This document shows, piece by piece, positions 9,690-49,779 of a DNA stretch of 64,000 nt. Origin of the DNA: Octopus sinensis. Lineage: Eukaryota. Position 1 is the stretch's first letter, and each line of letters starts with the position of its first letter. Under the pieces are notes generated by a model that saw nothing but the letters and a program-made list of their open reading frames with translations, was not told the origin of the DNA and did not search any database. The DNA lies in assembly GCF_006345805.1 (NCBI RefSeq), contig NC_042999.1, positions 138,074,001-138,138,000 of the forward strand, in the 5' to 3' direction. The translations under genes and the position numbers were made by a program.

Positions 9690-10029
9690 ATTTGTATACA
9701 TACGTACATATGTGCACACATGTATATATCTATTTATATGCTTGTATGTGTTTATGTTTACGATGGAACAGTAACTCAGAAAGCATTAGAGATGACTCAC
9801 AGAAAGATAAGGAACAAAGAAAAGAAAAAAAATTAAGAATTGAATAAATAAATAAATAAATAAATAAATTAGTCACCCTTCAAGTTTAACAGGTTACAGA
9901 GAAATCTTTTTCTTTTTTTCCTTTTTGTACAATTTTGAACCATATATATGATATGTGACACACGCACATATATACATACACACACATATATACATATATA
10001 TATTCATGTACATATATATATGTATGTAT

Positions 10030-10064
<35 letters not shown>

Positions 10065-10187
10065 GGATAATAGAACGAATGGTTTACACCTGGTAGCTTA
10101 CTGGTAGAGCATAGTCACTTTCAGAATGATCGTTTGGTATATAACAAATGGAAGACAGAAAATGGAATGCATGAAAATTTATTATTA

Positions 10188-10297
10188 ATCATGACAATTG
10201 TTTCGACACACCCAGCATCGATCCCTTACGGGTGGGACACTCAACAACTGGTTCAGGAGCATCCAGTGGTGGGTGCAGATGTATCTCGTCGGGGGAT
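10188..10297 (-). ncRNA. Minimal type I hammerhead ribozyme motif (variant core CCGACGA)
   Basis: Minus strand reads CCGACGA - GAUACA...UGUGUC (stem II) - GAAAC AAUU GUC. Stem III ACAAUUGU is palindromic. Stem I is poor in this arm but perfect (AUCAC/GUGAU) in the other arm. Confidence 0.6.
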
Positions 10298-10455
10298 AAA
10301 TAAATAAAAACAACTCGTTAAAATGACTGTTCCACAATGTAACTTACTGTTTTGTTGAGAGAAAAACAGCCAGACGGAGGAAAGATCTTCATATATATAG
10401 ATCAAAAATAAAATTGCAGAAGGCAAAAAGAGAAACGAGTTGTTTTTATTTACTT

Positions 10456-10555
10456 ATCACCCGACGAGATACATCTGCACCACCGGATGCTCCTGAACCA
10501 GTTGTTGAGTGTCCCACAAGAGGAATCGATGCTAGATGTGTCGAAACAATGTGAT
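10456..10555 (+). ncRNA. Hammerhead motif, second arm, cleavage triplet deleted
   Basis: ATCAC CCGACGA GATACATCT...AGATGTGTC GAAAC AAT GTGAT. It lacks TGTC relative to the left arm. Confidence 0.5.
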
Positions 10556-10630
10556 TAATAGTAAATTCTCGTATATTCCATCTTCTGGCTTCATTTGTTA
10601 GATACGTACATACATATATACATACATACA

Positions 10631-11337
<707 letters not shown>

Positions 11338-16251: not shown

Positions 16252-16792
16252 TATATGAATAAATGAAAGAATGAAGTCGAACGAAGATTTTAACACAAAT
16301 TCCTTTAGCTCAACACAGTTTCGAAGACTGCATCTTAATTCCGAAGGAATAAAGGAGCATATGCCGTTTCTCATCAGGAAAGACAAGGAGCCTCATCGCC
16401 TCAAGACGACAAAAAACTTTTGATGACTGCCTACATGGTGCACTGTGGACACCATGTAGGCAGTCATCAAAAGTATTTGTTCGTCTGAGGATGATAGAGG
16501 CTCCTTGTCTTTCCTGATGAGAAGACGGCATAATGCTCCCTTTATTCCTCGGAAATTAGGGTATGCAGTCTTCGAAACATGTGTTGAGAGTAAAGGAATT
16601 TTGTTTAAAATCTTCGTTCGACTCCATCTTTCATTTATTCATATAAAAAAAACACACACACAAATTTCACACAAGAACACGGGGTTTCTGCCATTGGCAT
16701 GTAGCTTCAACCGTGTTTTCTGACGTGAATTGCTACCCAGGTATCGATTAACCGAATTATCCATACTAGGATAATTCATTCACTACTTAAAC
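16252..16792 (+). mobile_element. Fold-back hammerhead element C inside (TA)n
   Basis: Inverted arms 16252-16440 and 16450-16645 with a 9-nt loop, then a structured tail of about 145 nt. TA tracts lie on both sides. Confidence 0.8.
16509..16590 (+). ncRNA. Minimal type I hammerhead ribozyme with intact core
   Basis: CUUUC CUGAUGA GAAGAC...GUCUUC GAAAC AUGU GUU GAGAG. Stem I CUUUC/GAGAG, stem II 6 bp, stem III ACAUGUGU self-complementary with G-U pairs. Predicted cleavage after 16585. Confidence 0.75.
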
Positions 16793-31549: not shown

Positions 31550-32270
31550 AGGAGAAGAGAGAACTCATGACCCAAGACCCATGACCTTTCCAGTCACTCT
31601 TGGAGTTGGGAGACTGTTGCGGCTGTTGCCCAGCCTGAACATCTATATGTCAATATGTTTACTGGTAAACCTAGGCAGGGAGTGGATATGATAATTTGTC
31701 GGAAAGTTTGCAACAGAGCGAACTCTACCAAAGGCCTCAAAGGTCCAGGTGTTGTTTTTGTTGTATTTGCTGTTTAAGTCCTAAGTCAGAAAACTTATGT
31801 TCATTATAATGGTGACTGTTCCCACATTTTTTGAATTACATATCCAAAACTACATTATTGAATCTCGGGGAGATCAGGCCGTTATTTCAAGCGGTAAAGT
31901 ATTCTATAAGCAATCTATTGTGTTTAAATTTATGATAGCTGATGTAAGAGTTTTATTCAATCTCTCGTTTAAGTACATCACTAAATTTAGTTGTGCGAAT
32001 TAAATAACGGGATAATCTGGAAGTAATATTTATAACTAGCGTTGTATCCATGTTTATACTTCTCTGTCATTGAACCAATGTTACAGAAGCCAGAGACAAG
32101 CCTAACTCTTTCAAGAGTTAAAAGAGCAAGGGATATATCGTTAGATATTCCAGTCGGCGAAGAGGCTTTTGTGGGAGAAAGGTGTAGATGTGCAAGAAAT
32201 AGTAGCAAGAATTAGTATTTCTCACATTAATAAAGGAAAACATTAATAAAAGGAAAACAATTCTAAATCG

Positions 32271-32707
32271 CGTAAGGGGTATTAGCCATCTGAATGTGGC
32301 TAGCCACTGGGGGGGGGGGTTACTGATGCTTTTAGCTCCAGGCGATCAACGTCACCAGAAGGACTTTAGACACTATCTCAGTGCCCTTGTGTTATTTGCA
32401 AAGGGAGGTCATCCTCCCTCGAAGACCCGAGTACTACATACGGACTATAGTTTCAAGGTAATTGCCTCTCGTCAACGCATGGTAAGCACCTTGAAACTAT
32501 AGTCCGTATGTAGTACTCGGATCTTCGAGGGAGGATGACCTCCCTTTGCAAATAACACAAGGGCACTGAGATAGTGTCTAAAGTCCTTCTGGTGACGTTG
32601 ATCGCCTGGGGCTAAAAGCATCAGTAACCCCCCCCCCACCAGTGGATAGCCACATTCAGATGGCTTATACCCCTTACGTTGTCGAGCGGTTACTGTTTAT
32701 ATCTCGT
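32271..32707. mobile_element. Young fold-back hammerhead element D with 12-bp flanking duplication
   Basis: Nearly identical inverted arms 32271-32459 and 32488-32678, 28-nt spacer, 29-nt tail. AATTCTAAATCG lies at 32259-32270 and 32708-32719. Confidence 0.85.
32437..32481 (-). ncRNA. Minimal type I hammerhead motif spanning the hairpin apex
   Basis: Minus strand reads CAUGCG UUGACGA GAGG CAAUUA CCUU GAAAC UAUA GUC CGUAUG. 6-bp stem I, 4-bp stem II, palindromic stem III ACUAUAGU, GUC site; C3 is U. Confidence 0.7.
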
Positions 32708-33399
32708 AATTCTAAATCGTTCTTACATTAATAAAAGGTAAACAATTCACAATGTGCATGTAGTACTCCAGCACGACCGCAATTCAATAAATTTAGTAAA
32801 ACAAGGATTTAAAAGAAAATAATTGGACAGCTTTGTCTTCGATGTACAAAAGACGGGTGTTCATAACTGGAAGGTCTTTTATTATAGGTCTGATGGATCA
32901 AATCTATCATGCCCTACGCAGAACATTTCTACTAGCATGTCTCTGGGGTTGGGTATGGGTACTGTGATGGACACCAACTATACCAACCTGATTGTTGTCT
33001 ATGTTGAAGCTCAGATCTTATAGTTCACCGGATCCGCTCCTGAGCTATACAATCGTTTCACATTTGATTGCATAGGCTCTCTCTCTCTCTCTCGATGAAC
33101 AACTTAACATTTTCAGCTCCTTTGTCAACTTTGCTCCTAGAGTCAACTTTCTAGAGGTCTCTGACTCTTTGAATCACTCATTCTTCGCCCTAATCATCTC
33201 CATCTTTGAGAAAATCACTGACTCCTAATACCTACTTTGACTTTACCGACTCCCTCAATTCTGTAGTCGTAACTTTGACTTTGAGGTTTAACCTCAGCAC
33301 ATGATATTCGACGTCGAGAGCCACCAAGTCGAAGCTGTCCTTGAAGTCGACTACTCCATCCGCCTTTGTTTCCCTTCATACTACTCTTCCTACGTTACC

Positions 33400-33830
33400 C
33401 ATTCATATATAACTCCTTTCCTACTCCACATCCAGCCTGAAGACATTCCGTACTCTCACCTCCGCTGCTACACCTGTTCCTTCTCCAAGACCGCCTATCT
33501 TATCGGATCTAAGAACCAATCTATTTACGACCCCTTCGCCTGCACCTGTACCAACCTTATCTATCGCTTAAAATGTTCCCTGTGTAATTTCCTATATAAC
33601 AGACTTGATGATGTTCATTCGACCACTTTACTAGAAACACCTGTCTCGGCAACAGTTCTTCCCTTTTTTGCTATTTTTTCTTCTATGGAACACTCTACTC
33701 AGCATCTCTCCATATTCGTTTTAGTTCCACACAGCAGTTCGCGAATTCTCGTCTCCAACGTGAACGAAAGTTCATCTTCTCTTTCCAAACACTCACCGCA
33801 AGAATTCAATCATTACATTAGTTTTTTTCA
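33400..33830 (+). pseudogene. Penelope-like GIY-YIG endonuclease relic
   Basis: FACTCTNLIYRLKCSLCNFLY and, after a frameshift, QRERKFIFSFQTL. This matches the PLE FTCxSxNLIYxIxCxxC...RExxxIxxLxTL pattern. Confidence 0.75.
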
Positions 33831-34671
33831 ATACACCTATCATCAGCTTCTTACGCACACGTGGCGCACACAGAGACACATACAATTGCAACATATAAGC
33901 AACACGCATACTCTCTATAACAAAATATGCACCCCCACACACTTACAGCATAAACACATTCATATACATACACACACATACACATAGATACATCTTCCAT
34001 AGCACTTCCACAATATTATCATAAAGAAGCGCACCACAATGCGTTTGTTTATGATAAACACTTACATAGCATGCATGCGCACAGCTGACATATATATACA
34101 CTCATACATACTAGGCTCCAGAAACATACACAACAACATACAGGTATGTATACTTTCACAGTAATGACACACGTGCAACTTTATATATATTTACATACTT
34201 ACACACATTCAGTATTACCATTACAATAGTTTTGCGCTACCTCCACGATTACACAACTAACACACACATGCATGCATGCATCCATCCATCCATACATAAA
34301 ACTACTCTGCATTACAGGGCTATATAGCATGCGCACACGGATCGACTCAACTAATATACAAAGACACACGTACACAAACATATTCATTCACTTACATGTC
34401 CACACAGCAGATGTAAAGGAACCGAAACATATCTATCTACGCTATATCAATACATTCTTACATACTAGATTCACAGTTTATGTACTGACACTGAAAGAAA
34501 CATATTTTATACACCTTAACAGCACACGGACAGACACACATACACATGTACGCTTACGTTTAGTTACATCCCTTATTGCTATTGAATGTATGAAACATCT
34601 TTCCTTTTCCTTAACGTCGGTCACTAATATTTTGCCGTTTATAAAGATTTTCCTAAGAAAATATCTTCAAG

Positions 34672-46425: not shown

Positions 46426-46640
46426 TTTTGTTGTTTAATCCCAGGTCACATCTAATGAAGCAGGCGTTGATTAGCTCCAATTCACTTCTGATAATTCTGT
46501 ACGTATTAAATGAATAATGTATTTAGGATAGTATTATCCTTGACAGACATATCTTTTACTTTTATGACAGTAAGGTGTGATTTAAGAGCGATTTTGGATT
46601 TGTTTCTAGAAGATCTAGCAACCAAGTATAAGCTCTTTTC

Positions 46641-47058
46641 CTCTTTCTTTATTGCCCACAAGGGGCTAAACATAGAGGGGACAAACAAGGACAGACAAAG
46701 GGATTAAGTCGATTATATCGACCCCAGTGCGTAACTGCTACTTAATTTATCGACCCCGAAAGGATGAAAGGCAAAGTCGGCTTTGGTGGAATTTGAACTC
46801 AGAATGTAACGGCATACAAACTACCTATTTCTTTACTACCCACAAGGAGCTAGACACAGAGGGGACAAACAAGGACAGACAAACGGATTAAGTCGATTAC
46901 ATCGACCCCAGTGCGTAACTGGTACTTAATTTATCGACCCCGAAAGGATGAAAGGCAAAGTCGACCTCCGCGGAATTTGAACTCAAAACGTAACGGCAGA
47001 CAAAATGTGGCTACGCATTTCACCCGGCGTGCTAACGTTTCTGCCAGCTCGCCGCCTT
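46641..47058 (-). mobile_element. SINE family B with tandemly duplicated 3' portion and 16-bp TSD
   Basis: Complete unit 46825-47058 plus headless unit 46641-46820. TSD AGTATAAGCTCTTTTC at 46625-46640 and 47059-47074. Confidence 0.92.
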
Positions 47059-47442
47059 AGTATAAGCTCTTTTCTTGGCTCACAGAATGTTTTGTGATAG
47101 TGATTGGTATATCGTTTGCTCTTTTAGTAGTTCTAGTCTTTGAAGTGCGGTCATGCTGTTGTGACATAACCTTCAGAGGTTTTAGTCAATTATATCGACA
47201 CAAGTACTTATTGACTTTGGAGAAAGATAAAAAATACGGTGTATGTAACCGAAAACAAGGTATTTTTCTCGGCGCCCCATTGATTATGTTATCCCACGCC
47301 CATATATGTGTGAATGTGTGTGTGTGTGCATACACACACATATACACACATACATGCATACACACAGGCATTCAGACACACATACGCACACACACACGTT
47401 TGTATGTATGTATATATATATATATACATACATGCATACTTC

Positions 47443-47473
<31 letters not shown>

Positions 47474-49779
47474 GGAAGTATGCATGTATGTATGTATGTA
47501 TGTATGTATGTATGTATGTATGTATGTATGTATGTATGTGTGTATGTATGTACATATATGTATATATATGAGTATATATGTATTTATGTTAGTGCCTTAG
47601 TCCTGCTAGAGCAAACAGATGATCAAATGCATACCAACCATGACCCACTCATCTGTTTAGACACTGTGAATGTAGCAATATATTATCCAATGTATCCTTT
47701 TCATTTTTAAGAAGGTAGAGTGTGATTTGAGGGAGATTTGGGTTCTATTTCTAGCAGATCGAGCGACTACTAAGAGTATCCTATATGGTAGTAGTGGTGG
47801 TGTTAAATATTCAAATGGGCGAGAATAGATCTCAAGGGACCCCTAATTTATGTTTTTTGATAAATTGGCGGAAATTAACCGAGTGCTTCTACTTTGAAGT
47901 TCTGATTAATAACCGCAGTGTTGGCGTCAAGGCAGTAGAGCTAGTCCATAAGTTTTGTGTAGCGTTACTACAAATGTTAGTAAATGTATAAAAATCGCTA
48001 AGCAGCAGATTAATTTTATTGTCGCAATTACTATCTAGAATTACAAACACATTATCTTTGTCGGTTTTCTTTTATAGAAATAATTTTATTCAAAGAGTTG
48101 TAGGTTCAAAGTGTCAACCTCTTCTTACCCTTTCTATCTCTGTATTTTGTTCTAGTTTACTGCCTAATAAAGGTTTCCTACGACATATACATACAACTCC
48201 CAAAACTTATGGCACTTGAAGTCAGTGAATTGACTAGTTAAGCAGTTTTATACTGACAGTAAATGTACTTTACCCTCGATTCAACAAAGGAAGCCAAGCA
48301 AGTGGCCTAAGTTACCGCCTTAGACACCATGACTTCTAATCCCTAATACAACTTAATCTCATAACCCAAAACTTTCTGCGGCAGCATGCTTAGATTATGG
48401 AGAGAGATTATAGCTGAAACCCAACCCCCAGAAAAACTTACCTCTACCAAAAGGGTGGCATTTATCTACCACTTCAGTTCCGTTATGACTATCACCCGAA
48501 AGATGAAATTTACCTTAGTGTATCGCACATTCTACAAGTTCTTCAACTGCAACCAGCTCTTTTTCATTTCTTATTGAGATATATCTACCAACTTTAGAGA
48601 ATCCTACCACCTTTCACTTCTCTGCCGTAATGCCTCTGTAAGCAGAGTTCCTTGAAGAAAGCTTCCTTATTTTGCAGTAACTCCCTTTGAATTCAATTCC
48701 ACATTGCAAAGGCTAAACCCAAAATTATCCCCAAACGTTTCTTCTTCACTCAGCCAATGTCAACACGATACAAATATAACGTCGGGTGTGGAAGCAACCG
48801 GAGTTTTGAATCAAAAGTCCATCGTCCCTTTTCATTGTTCTCTCTGTTACCCTTAATGTTGTGTTGAAGACCTATCATATATTCTTAAATATTTTCTCTC
48901 TAGATAGGTTTATTGAATAAGTGGGTGAAAAGAAATTAGAATACCAAACTAAAACCATATGCAGGTAATAGCTACGCTGCTACAGTGGGTATATAACATA
49001 GTAGTTAAAAACTTTAGCTATTTTAATTAAAATAAGAATTTGAAAACAATTCCCTTAAACATTCACGTTAAGCATACAAAATAGAATAAATTTTAGACTT
49101 TAAGATTAAGAAGCGCACCGCATTTATGAACAAAGGGTTTAATAAAAGCTACTGCATTAACATATACTTATTACACAACACATATGTCCGACAAATAGGA
49201 GATAACTGCCACTAAGTTTACTTAGAAGCGCGAGAGAACTTCTGCGTAATCGCTCGATCTGGAAAAAAGATGAGATGAGATGGTAATGGCCTGATTAAAT
49301 AACGACGACAACGACAGTAACAACACGAAAGTGTTACATATACTAAACAAATTAATTAGTAAAGAATAAACTTACAAACTTGTAAATCAAACCATATAGG
49401 AATTTACCACCTTCAAGAAAACAAAAACAGACAATTGATAGCTACTGACGTCAGACTGGCCAGTATAAAATCGATAGAATAATTGTGTTGAAATTACTCG
49501 CACTGATCAAATTTAGATTTAGCTGTATATTTATTAAGATTCAAAACTAAGTTATACTCTTTTAAGTAACAGCAATGAAAACAAATAACCACTAAGTATA
49601 TGCTCGATTCACCAACGCAAGCACAACCCTCTATAAAGCAAAGATTGGATCACAAAAGCTTGTGTTCTTCATAGCCAGAAAGTACTTCAAGCTTCATACA
49701 ATTACTAACCCTCTACAAAGTTCAGGTAGCTACTATAATAGCTTATTGCTCCCATATTTAGAACAATGCTGCTGCTAAA

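What the first reader, a model, noticed from the sequence alone, without database searches (positions are those of the whole stretch)
32259..32719. Element D: young palindrome with a hammerhead at the hairpin apex and a 12-bp target duplication
Seen: arms of about 190 bp differ at only a few positions. The 28-nt spacer supplies the 5' half (stem I, UUGACGA, part of stem II) of a 45-nt hammerhead on the minus strand. Both arms supply the GAAAC UAUA GUC CGUAUG half. AATTCTAAATCG flanks both ends. Inference: the inversion junction lies at the ribozyme, consistent with an RNA template end defined near the ribozyme followed by fold-back synthesis. The C3U change may have inactivated this copy.
Basis: partly seen in the sequence, partly recalled or inferred. 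Interest (0 to 1): 0.8.

Follow-up and report, generated by a model that had tools for sequence, protein, structure and literature searches.

The report
Head-to-head retrozyme insertion, wobble-core hammerhead
This palindrome is one recent, polymorphic insertion of a small non-coding jumping element with hundreds of copies, likely copied twice from one RNA by a Penelope retrotransposon enzyme, and its odd ribozyme core letter is shared by the whole family rather than being damage to this copy.

Summary
In detail: arms, 28-nt spacer, minus-strand type I hammerhead and 12-bp target duplication. An empty site with one 12-mer is in 2 of 4 DNA runs laid.

The element is one copy of a family with a ~357-nt tandem unit (non-LTR retrozyme type; 275 exact tail hits). 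Of 77 insertions, 53 are inverted and 42 are head-to-head between two fixed ends ~45 nt apart. That is the known Penelope-like "inverted copy + tail" signature.

Both interpretations fail. Junctions are not at the cut site (3 of 98 arm ends, 3.0 expected), and here neither arm is contained in the other, so simple fold-back cannot make it. U3 is the family state (181 exact hits against 0 for C3).

Best model (inferred): both nicked target strands prime reverse transcription on one uncut RNA variant, and the cDNAs join by 3-nt microhomology. The partner enzyme was not found.

Of most interest, the catalytic 3-8 pair is C-G, U•G, U-A or C·A in different related families, while the stems covary. 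The scan reported a similar element class before, in a shark.

The parts
32259..32270 (+). Left copy of the 12-bp target-site duplication
   Evidence: empty allele holds one copy
32271..32490 (-). Arm A, an inverted 5'-truncated copy covering monomer positions 310->357 and 1->175. Its outer end is at the family's fixed site A (about 177). It includes the spacer and the complete hammerhead.
32437..32481 (-). Complete type I hammerhead with U3•G8 core; predicted cut between 32443 and 32442
   Evidence: cut site inferred from the hammerhead consensus
32460..32487 (.). 28-nt unpaired spacer: the part of arm A that reaches further 5' than arm B
32488..32490 (.). 3-nt microhomology (ACC) at the head-to-head junction
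   Evidence: The two arm alignments overlap by 3 nt; overlaps of 0-4 nt in 35 of 49 family junctions
32488..32707 (+). Arm B, a direct 5'-truncated copy covering monomer positions 341->357 and 1->204. It holds only the 3' half of the hammerhead.
32679..32707 (+). One-sided 29-nt tail, shorter than the family's usual ~45 nt (site B at 216-227)
32708..32719 (+). Right copy of the 12-bp target-site duplication

Best explanation
This is one insertion of a non-coding, hammerhead-bearing repeat family with a ~357-nt unit (a non-LTR retrozyme), likely written into the genome by a Penelope-like reverse transcriptase/GIY-YIG enzyme acting in trans, which likely primed copying from both nicked target strands. 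Shown: family membership, tandem units, two fixed outer ends about 45 nt apart, the 12-bp duplication, the empty allele, non-nested arms, arms of one insertion sharing subfamily letters, and a family-wide U3. Inferred steps: the endonuclease nicks AT-rich DNA on both strands 12 nt apart. One 3' end starts cDNA near site B (here at 204) and the other at site A (175), both on the same RNA variant. That RNA was uncut at the ribozyme (a multimer or a circle). The two cDNAs converge, stop at variable points and are joined through 3 nt of microhomology. The junction falls in the ribozyme here mostly by chance. This copy is likely a poor ribozyme because it is single (its two-pair stem III would need a dimer partner) and a through-transcript would pair arm with arm, not because of a private mutation.
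For: Family size: 2349 first-look candidates, 275 exact tail hits, unit of 355-357 nt. Anatomy: 53 of 77 insertions are inverted and 42 of 77 are A/B head-to-head. Outer ends lie at 173-179 in 43 and at 216-227 in 46 of 98 arms. Duplications are 12-13 nt in 14 of 22 non-microsatellite sites, and 33 of 77 insertions have a (TA)n flank. Empty allele in 2 of 4 runs. Pairs are non-nested in 22 of 40. Arms within an insertion are 2.1% apart against 6.7% between insertions, and share 74% against 22% of non-majority letters. 49 of 89 arms cross the cut site and 24 of 89 exceed one unit. A 348-nt sister family has the same two ends. Literature: inverted 5' copy plus a 30-40 bp tail is the PLE hallmark (PMC8557442). 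A purified PLE protein cuts and extends both strands from two internal RNA starts that bound the tail, and ribozyme mutants still insert (PMC11167929). GIY-YIG PLEs with open 775-781 aa frames exist in this genome.
Against: No autonomous PLE sharing this repeat was found in 46 GIY-YIG loci or in 30 loci of another PLE family; the matches there were sister repeats near or beside the PLE sequence, and none recurred as a family's terminal repeat. Inner ends of the two arms lie closer together than chance (14 of 40 within 35 nt, 6.3 expected, p about 0.002), which also fits a hairpin origin. Later deletion at a palindrome's centre could turn nested arms into non-nested ones. Stops show a mild excess inside the ribozyme. 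This copy's tail end (204) is atypical. No cleavage, circular RNA or transposition was measured. The sample was chosen by an intact tail motif and so under-counts tail-less copies.
Confidence: 0.7

Rival explanations
1. One cDNA is made from site B, folds back on itself (self-priming) and is copied to site A. Later deletions at the unstable hairpin centre remove unequal parts of the arms.
For: Arms share variants. Inner ends are closer than chance. 18 of 40 pairs are nested or level. Self-priming was proposed for PLE palindromes in PMC3846280.
Against: In 22 of 40 pairs, this one included, the A arm reaches further 5' than the B arm, sometimes by hundreds of bases. Each would need a later deletion, and this insertion is young enough to be polymorphic. 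A purified PLE extends both target strands.
Confidence: 0.2
2. One reading: the ribozyme cut defines the RNA's 5' end, where synthesis folds back, and C3U then inactivated this copy.
For: This junction does lie in the ribozyme. 16 stops inside the ribozyme against 9.5 expected.
Against: Both arms pass the cut site. 3 of 98 ends lie at the cut (3.0 expected), and both ends are near the ribozyme in only 3 of 49 insertions. U3 is in 181 exact hits and C3 in none, and in 100 of 100 listed hits.
Confidence: 0.04
3. The family is the detached terminal repeat (pLTR) of an autonomous Penelope element, and these are stumps of heavily 5'-truncated autonomous insertions rather than a separate non-autonomous element.
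For: The anatomy is the same as PLE ends. Retrozymes are related to pLTRs in Xenopus (bioRxiv 2026.07.22.740005). Only a small share of PLE loci was examined.
Against: Long arms continue into another 357-nt unit (24 of 89 arms exceed one unit, up to 753 nt). No shared upstream breakpoint or adjoining PLE frame was seen in the segment maps.
Confidence: 0.06

Closest known systems
Metazoan non-LTR retrozymes (Cervera & de la Peña 2020, PMC7229834; e.g. mussel 350-390 bp repeats)
   Same: Short tandem units with one canonical type I hammerhead (stem I 6 bp, stem II 4 bp, weak palindromic stem III), no coding frame, strongly self-paired unit (circular fold z -4.4; ribozyme on a long rod, z -7.1), long duplications
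   Different: Core U3•G8 fixed in the family. Most insertions are head-to-head with two fixed ends, which the passages I read do not describe. Circular RNA and cleavage are not shown here.
Penelope-like element insertions with inverted pLTR and tail (PMC3846280, PMC8557442, PMC11167929)
   Same: Inverted 5'-truncated copy, one-sided tail, head-to-head arrangement, AT-rich or (TA)n targets, duplication of about 8-16 bp, hammerhead in the repeat
   Different: No RT/GIY-YIG frame. The tail is about 45 nt rather than 30-40. The partner element is unidentified.
Natural hammerhead core variants at pair 3-8 (U3-A8 in PMC3088659 and PMC4209133; a U3...G8 halophile variant with a 2-nt insertion cited in PMC7151607)
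   Same: Variation at the 3-8 pair; U3-A8 families also occur in this superfamily
   Different: Here U•G, U-A, C·A and C-G each mark a multi-copy subfamily of one related set.

Membership tests
Non-LTR retrozyme | Tandem repeat of about 150-450 bp units | tested here: met
   355-357 nt unit, dimers and trimers in the family; this copy itself holds two partial units in inverted order
Non-LTR retrozyme | One type I hammerhead per unit | tested here: met
   core has U3 in place of consensus C3
Non-LTR retrozyme | No protein-coding frame | tested here: met
   No ORF of 120 aa or more over the element; no tblastn match of two PLE proteins to the window
Non-LTR retrozyme | Highly self-paired unit | tested here: met
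   Circular fold -113.9 kcal/mol, z -4.35 against 100 shuffles
Non-LTR retrozyme | Expressed as circular RNA | tested here: inconclusive
   Only contigs of runs guessed to be RNA; they cannot tell a circle from a tandem copy
Non-LTR retrozyme | Self-cleavage | not testable with these tools
   Needs a transcription and cleavage assay
Penelope-type insertion | Inverted 5'-truncated copy next to the direct copy | tested here: met
   53 of 77 insertions
Penelope-type insertion | One-sided tail between two fixed end sites | tested here: met
   Ends at 173-179 and 216-227 in 89 of 98 arms; 29 nt in this copy
Penelope-type insertion | Target duplication at AT-rich or (TA)n sites | tested here: met
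   empty allele
Autonomous Penelope-like element | RT plus GIY-YIG open frame | tested here: not met
Non-autonomous derivative of a named PLE | Sequence shared with the terminal repeat of an autonomous partner | tested here: inconclusive
   None in 46 + 30 PLE loci, drawn from 5029 and 18769 candidates

The most novel reading that the evidence does not exclude
This retrozyme superfamily has kept spreading while the hammerhead's catalytic 3-8 pair walked by single steps through C-G, U•G, U-A and even C·A, with stems and the dimer palindrome still covarying. The fold may therefore be selected as a recognition or protein-assisted, slow-cutting module rather than as a fast ribozyme. Its hundreds of head-to-head copies would also be an in vivo record of two-strand priming by Penelope enzymes on one RNA, linking retrozymes to Penelope machinery by mechanism and not only by sequence.
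Probability: 0.35. Interest if true: 0.65.

Novelty: new variant of a known kind. Interest (0 to 1): 0.4.

Why it matters
How Penelope-like elements build their inverted ends, and whether their hammerheads must cut at all, are open questions in the papers read. This family offers hundreds of short natural products of one reaction with countable ends, an insertion with both alleles in public data, and four natural states of the core 3-8 pair in near-identical scaffolds. Both questions become directly testable. The single locus in the window is ordinary.

Tried and rejected
Rfam at gathering threshold missed the ribozyme.

Partner search: the monomer was compared with 46 GIY-YIG loci and with 30 loci of the PLE family related to the right flank. 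Only sister repeats matched.

Expression: no RNA holder was listed. Contigs of 4 runs guessed to be RNA lay on the monomer and crossed the unit junction, but any genomic copy does that too, so this is not used as evidence.

Searching the right flank for paralogous empty sites gave only 8 old matches besides the locus itself, at 73-85% identity.

The idea that the 12-mer belongs to the local tandem unit was rejected.

The first tree left out the U-A and C·A families through a pattern error and was redone. Its root is not trusted, because L221 is unusually close to the outgroup.

A MITE or DNA-transposon reading was rejected: arms vary in length from a fixed outer end, a third of insertions are not inverted, and units are tandem.

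The mutational paper on the 3-8 pair that I recalled was not held. The scan's index had no look-alike by sequence.

Full report
Observation. The sequence holds inverted arms at 32271-32459 and 32488-32678 with 4 substitutions and one 2-nt indel, and a 28-nt spacer. A 45-nt type I hammerhead with core UUGACGA lies on the minus strand at 32481->32437. AATTCTAAATCG flanks both ends and occurs only twice in the window. The ribozyme structure holds across 13 distinct relatives: 99.5% of cells are paired, 4 pairs change on both sides, and 0 of 500 shuffles reach the covariation score (that control does not allow for relatedness). The host is a 2.7-Gb, microsatellite-rich animal genome, probably an octopus (inference from recalled repeats, not tested).

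Target duplication. I laid 4 DNA runs on 31900-33100. In X5 and X9 one contig each skips 449 bases, with 11-12 letters fitting both sides: the empty site with one 12-mer. In X2 and X7 contigs run from the left flank into the element. The insertion is therefore polymorphic among these runs and the 12-mer is a true duplication.

Family. The arm has 2349 first-look candidates in the genome, and a 23-nt tail motif has 275 exact hits. Copies form tandem units of 355-357 nt with one hammerhead each. The unit folds strongly as a circle (z -4.35), with the ribozyme at the tip of a long rod (z -7.1). From the first 100 listed tail hits I built 77 distinct insertions, dropping 8 duplicate loci, one locus fetched for another purpose and one segmental duplicate. 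Of these, 53 are inverted, 42 are head-to-head with one arm ending at site A (about 177, counting from the cut site) and the other at site B (about 222), and 24 are single-orientation. Of 98 arms in 49 two-arm insertions, 43 end at 173-179 and 46 at 216-227. Duplications are 12-13 nt in 14 of 22 non-microsatellite sites, and 33 of 77 insertions have a (TA)n flank. This copy is A (175) plus a short B (204), joined by 3 nt of microhomology.

Is the junction set by the ribozyme? No. Both arms here pass the cut site, by 17 and 48 nt. Family-wide, 3 of 98 inner ends lie within 5 nt of the cut (3.0 expected) and both ends are near the ribozyme in 3 of 49 insertions. 49 of 89 arms read through the cut and 24 of 89 exceed one unit. 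Against this reading, stops inside the 45-nt ribozyme are mildly enriched (16 against 9.5, p=0.03, post hoc), which may reflect pausing at structure.

How is the palindrome made? A fold-back copy must be contained in its template arm. Here neither arm contains the other, and the A arm reaches further 5' in 22 of 40 pairs. Yet arms of one insertion are 2.1% apart against 6.7% between insertions and share 74% against 22% of non-majority letters. Private changes are mostly on one arm only, 79 against 11. The simplest reading (inferred) is two primings, one from each nicked target strand, on the same RNA variant. Inner ends are closer than chance (14 of 40 within 35 nt, 6.3 expected). That fits both cDNAs reaching a common RNA end, but it also fits a hairpin later trimmed by deletion, which remains the main rival.

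The U3 letter. The exact 26-mer with U3 has 181 hits and with C3 none; 100 of 100 listed hits of 188 from a pattern open at that position have U3. A wider lineage pattern gives 541 hits; by hand count the first 100 listed are 54 U3•G8, 41 U3-A8, 5 C3·A8 and 0 C3-G8. A 348-nt sister family, about 65% alike, is C3-G8 and has the same two end sites (15 of 30 loci). With positions 3 and 8 masked, a tree of 35 copies needs 4 changes, all single-base steps, and the states track subfamilies. The root and hence the direction are uncertain. Scattered G8A copies inside the U•G family may be CpG decay (inference). Whether U•G or C·A cores cut is untested; from recall, such pairs slow cleavage strongly. 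This copy is more plausibly silenced by context: the plus strand of the whole element folds into one -388.6 kcal/mol hairpin, and on the minus strand the arm remnant out-competes the ribozyme fold.

Partner. The genome has GIY-YIG PLEs with open 775-781 aa frames and a further very abundant family. None of 76 loci examined carries this repeat as its end. Mobilisation by a PLE rests on anatomy.

Comparison with the literature. Craig 2021 (PMC8557442, passages) describes the inverted 5' copy and 30-40 bp tail. Arkhipova 2013 (PMC3846280, passages) describes head-to-head pLTRs with 8-10 bp duplications and proposes self-priming. Frangieh 2024 (PMC11167929, parts 1-2 of 4) shows both-strand extension from two internal starts bounding the tail, and insertion without ribozyme activity. 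Cervera 2014 (PMC4209133, parts 1-2 of 4) notes U3-A8 cores and opposite-strand ribozyme pairs 100-700 bp apart. Cervera 2020 (PMC7229834, passages and section 14) defines non-LTR retrozymes and suggests PLEs as mobilisers. Li 2026 (bioRxiv 10.64898/2026.07.22.740005, parts 1-3 of 5) links them to pLTRs by phylogeny. Perreault 2011 (PMC3088659, passages and section 8) and Naghdi 2020 (PMC7151607, passages) cover core variants. Seven searches (listings only, beyond the papers above) showed no description of this family or of a family-fixed U3•G8 retrozyme. No supplements were read, and they or repeat libraries may hold it. An earlier scan note (e1-7858806) reports the same class of palindromic PLE stumps in a shark; I did not check it.

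Verdict. A real, young insertion of known type: it works like a Penelope insertion and meets the testable retrozyme criteria. The family-level core variation and the non-nested two-arm statistics are what merit follow-up. Novelty: new variant of a known kind; interest 0.4.

Noticed in passing
window 32760-33990: The right flank is a decayed Penelope-like element with RT and GIY-YIG remnants (tblastx E 5e-22 to an abundant PLE family). The element landed beside or in it.
   Followed up: yes
window 16252-16645: Another palindrome with a hammerhead-like motif (CUGAUGA, long stem II, GAAAC) on the + strand near 16514; an 85-87% relative lies in L186.
   Followed up: partly
window 10737-11150 and 9987-10736: Palindromic insertions in (TA)n; the first has a hammerhead-like motif by eye.
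   Followed up: no
window ~12190 minus strand; L003:1079, L022, L183: A recurring hammerhead-like motif with U at core position 6 (CUGUCGA or CUGUUGA), apparently in the end repeat of an abundant PLE family. A second family-level core variant.
   Followed up: no
L181:374-4074 and L184: A young PLE family (98-99% alike) carries a 479-aa open frame upstream of and overlapping the 781-aa RT/GIY-YIG frame; PLEs are described as single-ORF.
   Followed up: no
L197-L225, L176, L194, L256: Further sister repeat families (59-70% alike) with similar end motifs; a looser ribozyme pattern has 1120 hits genome-wide.
   Followed up: partly
window 47425-47492: Rfam mir-1 hit barely over threshold, inside a TA-repeat palindrome; probably spurious.
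   Followed up: no
window 46640-47004: 184-bp dimer of a SINE-like repeat with several copies in the window; recalled as resembling octopus SINEs, not tested.
   Followed up: no
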